The notes under the pieces: model-generated
The model's database searches: none
The model's input: only the letters and a program-made list of their open reading frames with translations
What the model was told of the DNA's origin: nothing
Shown here: piece after piece, positions 5,482-9,200 of the stretch
Position numbering within the stretch: the stretch's first letter is position 1
Layout of the letters: every line of letters starts with the position of its first letter
Translations under genes and position numbers: made by a program
Assembly: GCA_964255285.1 (NCBI GenBank)
Contig: CAXUUL010000004.1
Coordinates: forward strand, 62,001 to 109,295
DNA from: Ionaspis alba
Taxonomy: Eukaryota
Direction: 5' to 3'
Length of the DNA: 47,295 bases

Positions 5482-6730
5482 TCATGTCATGGTGGTTTCC
5501 ATCTCATTGTTCCCATGCATCACGCTATCCTCCCTCATAGCACGGTTTTCCCGCTCTGAATCCAAACCAAGTTCAATGTTTCTGGGGATATCTTTGTTCG
5601 ACTCACGCGCTTTCTTCTCCGCCCACGCCCGAGTCCTGACCAGCTCCAGCAGTTTCGACCTGGTTCTATCGCCTTGACTAAGAAGGATGGCTTCATTGAC
5701 ACGTTTAGCAACGTCCTTACGTAGGCTAGGATCAAGTAACGCCTTAAGCGGTGGAGCAAGATTTTCTGGAGGAAAAATGAGAAGAGACATAGTCCGCTCA
5801 AGATCTTCAAGAAATTCAGGGCTGGTCGGAGCGCGAGGAGCAAGATGAGTGGTGGCAAACGTTAAAGCTGGAGTGATGTCGCCATTTGCAGTTGAGGTGC
5901 ATGTGCGAATGAGCTCTACCAGCTGGAGACGAAGGAGAGCAAAGTGAAGAGAAGAATCTCGGTCAAGGATCTGGTAACGCATTAGGCGCGAACAGTAATA
6001 GAGAATGACACATGGCGTATGGACAAAATAAATGGTGCTCAGACTGAAGACTGAAGTAGTTGTAGTTTTGATTCTCATCAACACCTCGGAAGGTATATGA
6101 GTGGTGCATGAAACAAGGTCTAATCATAGCAACGAGAGGGTGACGGCTTTTTGTTTGGCGTATTTGTGGGGAGCCTTACCTGTGGATTCAATTCGTTGAT
6201 TTTTTCTATAGCAGCCTGTATCTCACCTCCATATATCAAGTTCCGTATGTCTACCCGCTCCTGTATCGACTCGACATCCGCTCTTGGCTGAATGTTCGCC
6301 TCAAGAGCGAAGTTCTGTGCGGCTGACGGGTATCCTTCGCTGACCAGATAGTCCATGACTAGGGAATTGATGAGACTACCGTTACGAGAAGAGGTTAGCA
6401 GCTGATCTCCACAACGAGCCGTAGCAAGAATCAAGAGCGTTATTGTACGAGAGCCGATTCAGAGTGACAAGTCAATGTGTCTCCTCAGGGTATTCAGAGA
6501 GATTCCCAACTTGATGAATAATACATCATGCAAAGGTGAAGGGTGTGAAGTTAGAACGGAGCGATCGGCGCAGAAAGAAGGCCTTCTCACGTCTTGCTGA
6601 ATTTGACATCTTGCACTCGAGTCTCGAAGGTGGGTAGCCTAGAAGCAGTTGCGCTGGAGGTTGTGGAGGACGTCTCAGAGGAAGGATCAGCCTCAGCGTG
6701 GAGAGTGCGCTGACAATGTTGGCTCACCAT
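5482..6730 (-). CDS. GID8: GID/CTLH E3 ligase complex subunit Gid8 (LisH-CTLH-CRA)
   Basis: Exons 6728-6730 (ATG only), 6591-6673, 6180-6375 and 5482-5970. LisH LINSLVMDYLVSEGYPSAAQNF, CTLH ERVDIRNLIYGGEIQAAIEKINELNPQIL, CRA ALTFATTHLAPRA...FLEDLERTMSLL. Confidence 0.9.
6035..6132 (-). ncRNA. Intronic box C/D snoRNA in GID8 intron 3
   Basis: Minus strand: box C ATGATTA (6127-6121), D' CCGA (6089-6086), C' TGATGA (6080-6075), D CTGA (6042-6039), terminal TGCT/AGCA pairing. The D guide ACTTCAGTCTTCA is complementary to the conserved LSU rRNA segment UGAAGACUGAAGU. The host intron is 209 nt versus about 55 nt for typical introns here. Confidence 0.85.
6455..6534 (-). ncRNA. Intronic box C/D snoRNA in GID8 intron 2
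   Basis: Minus strand: box C ATGATGT (6529-6523), D' CTGA (6497-6494), C' TGAGGA (6487-6482), D CTGA (6462-6459). The D' guide TGGGAATCTC is complementary to LSU rRNA GAGAUUCCCA. The host intron is 215 nt. Confidence 0.82.
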
Positions 6731-7652
6731 GTTGTCAAGGCAAAGAAGGTTATCTGGTCTCCATCAGCGAGAGCTTGTGCTTGACACTCTGTTCCTGAAA
6801 GCTGTGTTGTACAATAAGGCATCCAGGCAAAATATTTAGTGGGTGCTGCGGACGAACAGTTTTGCAGGCAGACGGAGCTTACTTCTGAGCCGCATTACAC
6901 GAGTTTAGCGGTATCCTAACATAAAATACGACGAGGCTGAACTCCATGAATACCTATACCCGATGAACGTAATTACAGTGCCTTCATGATTGGCCAATAA
7001 CCTGGTCATAAATCAAGCTACTTATGCCTTTTATAAGCTATTGCACAGCAAATAAGCCTGAAGAGTATTGAAACCGCCATAACAGCACCGCCGATATACT
7101 GTATTACGCCCTCCAATTTGCACCCTCGCTCTCCCAACCCCTGAGACCGTGACACGGCGAGCAATGGCGAGTGATATAAAAGTAGTGGCGATTCTTGCCA
7201 AGAAAGTCGGATAAGGATTGAAAGATTCAGAGCTCTCTCCGAATCTTCAAACGTAGAATCATGGATAATATGGTTGTAGCCAGTATCGCCACTATCGATG
7301 ACTGAAACTTACGTGAGCCTGATACCCGATGATAAATTCTCCAGAAAGTCTACTAGCAGGTAGTGAATGCACGATCTTGGCTATACGTATCATCCTCGTA
7401 CTTTGACATTTTCGGCTCTATTCCCCCAAGAGCGCTTATCCCGCTAAAATCCTCACCAGCGGCTGCTCGGGACAGACTGAGAACTTCGTTTCATCGCTCC
7501 TCCCTGAGCACGCGACTTGGATGGAGAGGATGATACGTGCATAGAGTAGACAAAAACAGGGTGGCCGTCATGTCTCGCTTTTCTGTCTTCGGATTCGTGT
7601 GACTTATTGATGTAATCTTACTCCTTCTCTCAAATCGCCCCGCCATCTGGCT

Positions 7653-9200
7653 ATGAACAAGGCGCACTACAGCCCCCCATGGGCGGATACCTCGATAATA
7701 GGCATTGCTGGCTCAAGTGGATCCGGAAAAACTTCTTTGGCTGTTGAGATTGTTTCGCTGCTAAATCTGCCATGGGTGATCATTTTGTCTATGGTAAGCC
7801 ACCCTTCATGTTGCCAAGTAAGTGGTGAAGCCTGACTGTGATAGGACTCGTTTTACAAGCCACTCTCTCCTGCTCAGTCAGAAAAGGCATTCCGGAATGA
7901 ATATGACTTTGACTCTCCCAATGCTATCGATTTTGATGTTCTGGTTGAGAAGTTGCGGGAACTGAAGCAAGGGTACTCAATCTTTGCTATGATGGCTCGT
8001 GGACGGTGTGCTAAAAGGTCCAACTACAGGATGCGGGCAGACATCCCAATCTACTCTTTCGAAAAACACCAGCGGGAGGACATTACTTCGTCTATCTATT
8101 CCCCTCACGTGCTCATCGTTGAAGGCATATTTGCGCTCTATGATCCCCGAGTCCTGGAGCTTCTGGATCTTAAGATTTTTGCCGAGGCCGACGCAGATCT
8201 CTGTCTAGCGCGCAGAAGTACGTAAAAGTGAGACAATGTCTGCAAGCTGTGCAGCTGATGCTAAAACTAGCAAGTTGTCCGTGATGTGCGAGATCGAGGA
8301 AGAGATATTGAAGGCTGTATCAAGCAATGGATTTCCTTCGTGAAGCCGAATTTCCAGCACTATGTTGAACCGCAGCGAAACGTTGCAGATATCATAATAC
8401 CCAGGGGCATTGAAAATCGAGTAGCCATCGACATGGTGGTGAAGCATGTGCAGCGGGTTCTAGTTGAGAAATCGCGGAAACATCAGGAGGACTTGAACAG
8501 GCTTGGCAAGGAGGTGGAGGATAAGCCACTCTCGCACAACGTGTTGCTGCTCAGACAGACGCCGCAAATTCGGGGTATGAATACTGTGATTCAAAATCCC
8601 GAAACGGATGAAGTGGATTTTATCTTCTATTTTGACAGGTTGGCAACTTTGCTGGTTGAGAGGTACGTGATCCACAGGAAGGTGGATTTCTCATATTGTG
8701 GCTTACGAGACGAAAGGGCTATGGACAATATGCATTTCAAACCTGCCGAAGTGACCACTTCTGCAGGGAATAATTACCGAGGTCTTGCCATGGCTGGTGA
8801 AGTAAGTGCAGTGGTGATTCTTCGTGGAGGTAGCTGCTTTGAAACCGGCCTTAAAAGGGTGATCCCCGACTGTCAGACAGGTCGTGTGCTCATTCAGACG
8901 AATTATCGAACGGGGGAACCGGAGCTTCATTACATGAAGCTACCCAACAACATTTCGGCTCAAGATAGTGTACTATTGCTCGATCCTCAAATGTCGAGCG
9001 GAGGAGCAGCATTGATGGCCGTCAGAGTACTAATTGATCACGGAGTCTCAGAGGACAGGATCGTTTTCGTTACATACTTCGCAGGGAAGACGGGAGCGAA
9101 TCGATTACTGAAAGTGTTTCCTGGCGTGAAGGTCGTTGTGTGTAGAATAGTGGAAGATTACGAGGAGCGTTGGATAGAGAGGAGGTATTTCGGCTGCTAA
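7653..9200 (+). CDS. URK1: Uridine kinase with C-terminal UPRTase-like domain
   Basis: P-loop IIGIAGSSGSGKT, SMDSFYK, YDFDSPNAID, VEGIFALYD, RDVRDRGRD. UPRT-like part has FIFYFDRLA, VILRGG and LLDPQMSSGGAA. Four introns, the first starting at 7794 and one at 8663-8716. Confidence 0.93.

What the first reader, a model, noticed from the sequence alone, without database searches (positions are those of the whole stretch)
6455..6534. Box C/D snoRNA in GID8 intron 2, possibly a dual LSU/SSU guide
Seen: variant box C ATGATGT, D' CTGA, C' TGAGGA and D CTGA. The D' guide TGGGAATCTC pairs with LSU GAGAUUCCCA, and D'+5 targets the A in GAG-A-UUCCC, from memory equivalent to the vertebrate U79/SNORD79 site. 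The D guide TTGTCACT gives a short 8-nt match to SSU AGUGACAA, with D+5 on the A of GUG-A-C. That second target is weak and tentative.
Basis: partly seen in the sequence, partly recalled or inferred. Interest (0 to 1): 0.7.

Follow-up and report, generated by a model that had tools for sequence, protein, structure and literature searches.

The report
Fungal intron guide RNA, one target
A small RNA inside an intron of a fungal gene very likely directs one known chemical mark on the large ribosomal RNA; the proposed second target looks like chance, while the next intron holds a better two-target candidate.

Summary
The box C/D snoRNA is real. It lies on the minus strand (6529-6459) in GID8 intron 2. 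It is a member of a described family: Neurospora Nc CD14 (cloned, intronic, 26S-Am2288, U79 homologue) has the same D' guide and D' box. Rfam SNORD79 is the best hit but below threshold (24.9 of 47 bits). In 39 of 117 metagenome loci the RNA sits just before the same GID8 exon.

The SSU guide is not supported. The 8-bp match exists (-9.9 kcal/mol), but 0 of 28 distinct GID8-hosted homologues keep it. The conserved part of that segment is instead the 3' arm of an internal stem (CAAGU/ACUUG) with compensatory changes. The SSU base is in neither the Arabidopsis nor the Neurospora methylation table.

Found beside it: GID8 intron 3 (6127-6039) holds a second conserved box C/D RNA. Its D' guide fits SSU G1275 (Arabidopsis numbering), and its D guide to LSU is kept in 18 of 19 homologues. 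That RNA is the better dual-guide candidate. Expression and methylation are untested.

The parts
6523..6529 (-). Box C, variant ATGATGT
   Evidence: The last base is C in 9, T in 6 and A in 2 of 17 similar GID8-hosted homologues, so the variant is typical of this family.
6508..6513 (-). 5' arm of internal stem, CAAGT(T); its last base is the first base of the guide
6499..6508 (-). D' antisense element, 10 bp to LSU; target A = Neurospora 26S A2288, Arabidopsis 25S A2327
   Evidence: duplex -18.0 kcal/mol including a 2-bp extension over a bulge
6494..6497 (-). Box D' CTGA
   Evidence: same in Nc CD14
6482..6487 (-). Box C' TGAGGA
   Evidence: same in Nc CD14
6468..6473 (-). 3' arm of internal stem, GACTTG
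   Evidence: in this sequence it competes with a local hairpin
6463..6470 (-). Proposed SSU guide TTGTCACT; 8-bp match, not conserved
6459..6462 (-). Box D CTGA
6376..6590 (-). GID8 intron 2 (215 nt): donor 61 nt before box C; branch A 64 nt and 3' splice site 83 nt after box D
   Evidence: the same acceptor position is found in 27 of 28 GID8-hosted loci examined (L078 not resolved)
5482..6730 (-). Host gene GID8/TWA1 (LisH-CTLH): ATG 6730-6728, exons 6673-6591, 6375-6180, 5970-5482; about 256 aa
   Evidence: splicing inferred from sequence and homologues, no RNA reads
6039..6127 (-). Second box C/D snoRNA candidate in intron 3 (6179-5971): C ATGATTA 6127-6121, D' guide 6111-6100 to SSU, D' CATA 6099-6096, C' TGATGA 6080-6075, D guide 6058-6044 to LSU, D CTGA 6042-6039

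Best explanation
An intron-encoded, single-guide box C/D snoRNA of the Nc CD14 / U79 (SNORD79) type. It is transcribed with the GID8 pre-mRNA and released from intron 2 by splicing, debranching and trimming (inferred from established snoRNA biology). It binds the core C/D proteins and uses its D' guide to place fibrillarin/Nop1 on one LSU adenosine, Neurospora A2288 = Arabidopsis A2327 (pairing shown, methylation in this fungus inferred). The D side is not a guide: most of it pairs back on the segment just 5' of the D' guide, forming a 5-6 bp internal stem (supported by comparison, not by experiment). The 8-nt SSU match arises because the family's usual letters already supply 5-6 of the 8 pairs and this species differs at two variable positions.
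For: Nc CD14 has the same D' guide, D' box and C' box, was cloned, is intronic, and is listed with a D' target only. SNORD79 is the top of 2 Rfam matches at E<=10. The equivalent LSU base is methylated in Arabidopsis (A2327). 39 of 117 loci from a scan that did not use the host or the D side carry the GID8 exon right after the RNA. SSU pairing D+2..D+8 is unbroken in 0 of 17 similar, 0 of 2 Neurospora-like and 0 of 9 distant GID8-hosted homologues; duplex energies in 19 homologues are -2.0 to -6.0 against -9.9 here. Stem: 80.8% of 120 cells paired, 5 cells changed on both sides (0 of 500 shuffles), covariation 0.195 (0 of 500), lower at every slide of the partner. The four homologues with changed 5' arms (L028, L032, L082, L088) each pair better with their own 3' segment than with any of 17 others; permutation 21 of 20,000.
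Against: No expression or methylation data for this organism, and its own rRNA was not found. The Rfam score is far below the gathering cut-off. Conservation of the D' guide in the metagenome set is built into the search pattern. RNAalifold did not predict the stem, the free fold of this sequence does not contain it, and with boxes and guide held open it is the best structure in 12 of 20 sequences but not in this one (arm pairing probability 0.15). Only 2 of 6 stem pairs show two-sided change (144 of 500 shuffles reach that), and the shuffle control ignores relatedness. The homologues are distant (at most 75% identity in the exon peptide), so a recent gain in this lineage is not excluded.
Confidence: 0.85

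Rival explanations
1. Dual guide: the D side has recently become a working SSU guide in this lineage, marking the A just before the C that plants methylate.
For: Perfect 8 bp starting at D+1 with a Watson-Crick pair at D+5, -9.9 kcal/mol; a 7-bp minimum is used in a published mapping (PMC8817022). The A at D+3 is seen in none of 17 homologues, so it is a departure. Lineage-specific D targets are described in fungal families (PMC5824354). Another GID8-hosted group carries an 11-bp SSU guide on this same D side. Arabidopsis methylates two bases close by, A468 and C473.
Against: 0 of 28 homologues keep the pairing. Best rRNA matches of 7-9 bp (one G-U allowed) turn up for nearly all homologous D segments at unrelated sites. 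The target maps to Arabidopsis A472 (offset 12 on L137, checked by hand at A28 and C418), which is not in the Arabidopsis table and has no counterpart in the Neurospora table. Three of the eight bases belong to the stem arm.
Confidence: 0.1
2. The conserved letters beside the guide and on the D side give extra pairing with rRNA near the LSU site (van Nues type) rather than an internal stem.
For: The duplex program extends the D' pairing by 2 bp over a bulge. Neurospora-like homologues have 7-8 nt on the D side complementary to the LSU target region itself. The exact CAAGU/ACUUG letters recur in many loci with other hosts, more than a stem alone might need. Such pairings are described for single-guide snoRNAs (PMC3116282).
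Against: Four homologues change both arms together and keep the stem. The spacing from ACTTG to box D varies from 3 to 6 nt.
Confidence: 0.15
3. A decayed, unexpressed copy, or a chance cluster of boxes.
For: Variant box C, no terminal stem, sub-threshold Rfam score.
Against: Only exact copy of guide plus D' box in the genome; all four boxes intact; same intron of the same gene in 39 of 117 loci; the variant box C is family-typical; over 40% of fungal C/D snoRNAs lack a terminal stem (PMC5824354).
Confidence: 0.03

Closest known systems
Neurospora crassa Nc CD14 (EU780938; Liu et al. 2009, PMC2780460)
   Same: Identical 10-nt D' guide, D' box and C' box, similar size, intronic, same LSU target.
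   Different: D side unrelated in sequence; box C canonical in Neurospora. The host gene is not named in the parts of the paper read; Nc CD14-like loci L052 and L114 lie in GID8 intron 2.
Rfam SNORD79 / U79 (RF00152)
   Same: 16 letters across guide and D' box match the consensus; same target.
   Different: 24.9 bits against a cut-off of 47; no terminal stem; the 3' half does not align.
Arabidopsis SnoR44 (PMC8053127 table)
   Same: Assigned to the equivalent base, 25S A2327.
   Different: Also assigned to C2338; its sequence was not compared here.
For the intron-3 RNA: Rfam snoMe18S-Gm1358 (RF00533) and snoZ221_snoR21b (RF00300)
   Same: D' guide to the SSU G listed as G1275 (SnoR21) in Arabidopsis.
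   Different: 16.5 and 15.2 bits, far below cut-offs; it carries a conserved LSU D guide whose target (about A1484 in Arabidopsis, A1455 in Neurospora numbering, by hand count) is in neither table read.

Membership tests
Box C/D methylation guide snoRNA | Box C (RUGAUGA) near 5' end and box D (CUGA) near 3' end | tested here: met
   box C has one mismatch at the last base, shared by 15 of 17 homologues
Box C/D methylation guide snoRNA | Internal D' and C' boxes | tested here: met
   these boxes were part of the search pattern, but match Nc CD14 independently
Box C/D methylation guide snoRNA | Antisense element of about 10 nt or more obeying the +5 rule | tested here: met
   10 of 10 to LSU of other eukaryotes; own rRNA not available
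Box C/D methylation guide snoRNA | Terminal stem (optional in fungi) | tested here: not met
   None in the folds; absent in over 40% of fungal members
Box C/D methylation guide snoRNA | Expressed, protein-bound, directs 2'-O-methylation | not testable with these tools
   Needs RNA data or experiment
Rfam SNORD79 (RF00152) | Score at or above gathering threshold 47 | tested here: not met
   24.9 bits, E 0.097; nothing at threshold in the window
Nc CD14 family | Same D' guide and target, intronic | tested here: met
Nc CD14 family | Same host intron | tested here: inconclusive
   The Neurospora locus was not fetched; two Nc CD14-like loci lie in GID8 intron 2
Double-guide C/D snoRNA (Canzler et al. 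sense) | Second antisense element conserved across the family or a lineage | tested here: not met
   0 of 28 homologues; no close relative could be read letter by letter

The most novel reading that the evidence does not exclude
The D side of this GID8-hosted U79-type RNA is an evolvable slot: an internal stem in most ascomycete-like loci, a second pairing to the LSU site in Neurospora-like loci, an 11-bp SSU guide in a distant group, and in this species a guide caught at birth, where two substitutions turned a stem arm into an 8-bp guide for an SSU adenosine not listed as methylated in the tables read, with stem and target competing for the same bases.
Probability: 0.1. Interest if true: 0.6.

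Novelty: new member of a known kind. Interest (0 to 1): 0.27.

Why it matters
As given, little: one more member of a described snoRNA family. Three by-products are useful. (1) GID8 is a conserved fungal host of two snoRNAs in neighbouring introns; I found no paper saying so in two searches. (2) Neither RNA reaches an Rfam threshold, so both are missed by standard annotation. (3) The intron-3 RNA predicts an LSU methylation site absent from the two tables read, which RiboMeth-seq in any filamentous ascomycete could test.

Tried and rejected
Own rRNA: none found by motif or by the SSU model, so targets were checked on other eukaryotes' rRNA (L127, L128, L130, L137, L138, L139). RNA evidence: no RNA holder listed. 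Contigs of three runs were laid: X1 is near-identical and may be the source, so it is no independent support; one X2 contig fits only 6072-6116 and 6480-6515 with 361 letters between (363 here), a weak hint of a relative with both snoRNA cores. No eukaryotic LSU motif in viral contigs. No second LSU copy for the intron-3 D target in 5 genomes, so the single mismatch at D+6 in 11 of 19 homologues is unexplained. A shared alternative rRNA target for the D side was sought in 20 sequences and none was found (the SSU stretch between model positions about 1256 and 1334 was not included, and snRNAs and tRNAs were not searched). Considered from the alignment: the ACTTG arm could also pair with SSU near L137 position 545, but its distance to box D varies, so it was rejected as a guide. 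My first acceptor for intron 3 (6119) was wrong; 5970 fits the homologues. The automatic donor pick failed for several loci including this one. Paper searches: snoRNA+GID8+intron 0 papers; snoRNA/fungi/intron/LisH/CTLH 24 papers, none relevant by title among the 20 listed; SNORD79+28S+methylation+fungi 0; no filamentous-fungus methylation map among 20 listed of 102. Earlier scan findings: nothing shown. The supplements of PMC5824354 could not be read and may already list both RNAs and their targets.

Full report
Observation. The host encodes LisH and CTLH domains, and its two large exons match GID8 best among solved structures. Intron 2 runs from 6590 to 6376; the branch A lies 64 nt and the acceptor 83 nt after box D. 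That the organism is a filamentous ascomycete is my inference from splice signals and similarity; no tool named it.

Family. Rfam gives nothing at threshold in the window. In 6300-6800 the better of 2 matches is SNORD79, 24.9 bits against a cut-off of 47. Liu et al. 2009 (PMC2780460; I read parts 1-2 of 6, passages, and supplements 1 and 4) list Nc CD14: 75 nt, cloned, intronic, D' guide to 26S-Am2288, homologue U79, no D target. Its guide, D' box and C' box equal ours; its D side does not. In the Arabidopsis RiboMeth-seq table (PMC8053127, passages) A2327 lies 11 nt before C2338, as A2288 lies before C2299 in Neurospora, so the equivalent base is methylated in a plant. The LSU guide is therefore a known one.

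Homologues. 98 of them parse with a D box (76 distinct cores); 19 were dropped as cut off or unlike snoRNAs. tblastn found the GID8 exon right after the RNA in 39 of 117. These fall into 17 distinct cores like ours, 2 like Nc CD14 and 9 of a distant, unassigned group. The acceptor sits at the same codon in 27 of 28 loci examined. Conservation of the D' guide in this set is built in; the shared host is not.

The SSU claim. The 8-mer pairs perfectly with two eukaryotic SSU sequences, -9.9 kcal/mol against -18.0 for the LSU duplex. That length is within a published 7-bp minimum (PMC8817022, passages). But 2.9% of window 8-mers match SSU and 8.8% match SSU or LSU. None of the 28 homologues keeps D+2..D+8 unbroken; D+3 must be a purine and is a pyrimidine in 17 of 17. 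The target maps to Arabidopsis A472, between the listed A468 and C473 but not itself listed. The family's usual letters already give 5-6 of the 8 pairs, so two changes suffice to make the match. A recent gain cannot be excluded, since no close relative could be read.

What the D side does. The conserved letters at D+6..D+10 (ACTTG) are complementary to CAAGT just before the guide. On an unfitted alignment of 20 sequences 80.8% of cells pair, 5 cells change on both sides (0 of 500 shuffles) and sliding the partner lowers pairing to 21-58%. Four homologues with changed arms each pair best with themselves. Against this: RNAalifold does not predict it, only 2 of 6 pairs have two-sided changes, and with boxes held open it is the best fold in 12 of 20 sequences, not including ours, where a local hairpin competes. 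Either fold ties up part of the proposed guide. I take the stem as likely, not shown. Van Nues et al. (PMC3116282, passages) describe both structure-supporting conserved segments and extra rRNA pairing in unused guide regions.

A second RNA. Contigs laid on the gene fitted inside intron 3, which led to a second box C/D candidate at 6127-6039. Its D' guide pairs 11-12 bp with SSU at the G targeted by Rfam snoMe18S-Gm1358 and snoR21b (both below cut-off; Arabidopsis G1275). Its D guide pairs D+2..D+16 with the one LSU copy held; 18 of 19 distinct homologues keep at least 12 of 13 pairs over D+2..D+14, and the Neurospora-like L052 has lost it. The predicted A lies 37 nt after the U24 cytidine by hand count and is in neither table read. 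This is the better dual SSU/LSU guide. One mismatch beside the target in 11 of 19 homologues is unexplained because no matching ascomycete LSU was found. A Trichophyton table lists a predicted 25S Am1453 for another RNA (PMC3890542, one passage); whether it is the same base was not resolved.

Literature limits. Canzler et al. (PMC5824354; abstract, sections 17 and 27, part 1 of section 25, passages) do not name CD14 or U79 in the main text; their supplements could not be read and may hold both RNAs. The Aspergillus survey (PMC2377427, passages) showed no matching target in the table rows seen. Searches for a GID8 host found nothing. The steps of intron release and core-protein binding are recalled textbook knowledge.

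Verdict. A real, single-guide snoRNA of the Nc CD14 / U79 type (confidence 0.85): new member of a known kind, interest 0.27. The dual-guide reading for this RNA has about a 10% chance. The conserved two-snoRNA GID8 host and the intron-3 guide are the parts worth following.

Noticed in passing
window 6127-6039, minus strand (GID8 intron 3, 6179-5971): Second conserved box C/D snoRNA candidate with an SSU D' guide (G1275 in Arabidopsis numbering) and a 13-15 bp LSU D guide kept in 18 of 19 homologues; no Rfam hit at threshold. Likely the true dual guide of this gene.
   Followed up: partly
L007, L024, L049, L060, L062, L066, L076, L097, L098: A distant, unassigned fungal group has the same U79-type RNA in GID8 intron 2 but with an 11-bp D guide equal to the Nc CD32 D' guide (18S-Um167, U45 type): a real-looking LSU/SSU dual guide and a likely guide switch.
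   Followed up: partly
L052:2465-2548, L114:263-352, and Nc CD14: In Neurospora-like homologues the D side holds 7-8 nt complementary to the LSU target region itself, overlapping the D' pairing; possible extra pairing.
   Followed up: partly
window 6727-6674, minus strand (GID8 intron 1): 54-nt intron right after the ATG whose acceptor, placed by homologues, would be the rare GAG; L030 has AAG there. Retention would be in frame without a stop.
   Followed up: partly
L010, L015, L018, L029, L033, L035, L039, L042, L050, L069, L081, L087, L096, L107: A group with the same CAAGT/ACTTG arms sits in introns of a host with no GID8 match and no clear reading frame, suggesting a move to another, perhaps non-coding, host.
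   Followed up: no
L004, L099, L108: U79-like RNAs whose D side pairs 9 bp with LSU just downstream of the U79 site, with an A at D+5.
   Followed up: partly
L053:2322-2390 and 2495-2573: A U79-like RNA lies about 100 nt from an Rfam SNORD24 hit, in what looks like a snoRNA cluster.
   Followed up: no
L119-L139: Eukaryotic rDNA, some with group I introns, is present in several prokaryote genome records, probably as contamination.
   Followed up: no
window 7600-9200, plus strand: Neighbouring gene encodes a uridine kinase plus uracil phosphoribosyltransferase fusion, divergent from GID8; ordinary.
   Followed up: no
window 6082: The near-identical run X1 reads A where the window has C, just outside the C' box of the intron-3 RNA.
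   Followed up: no
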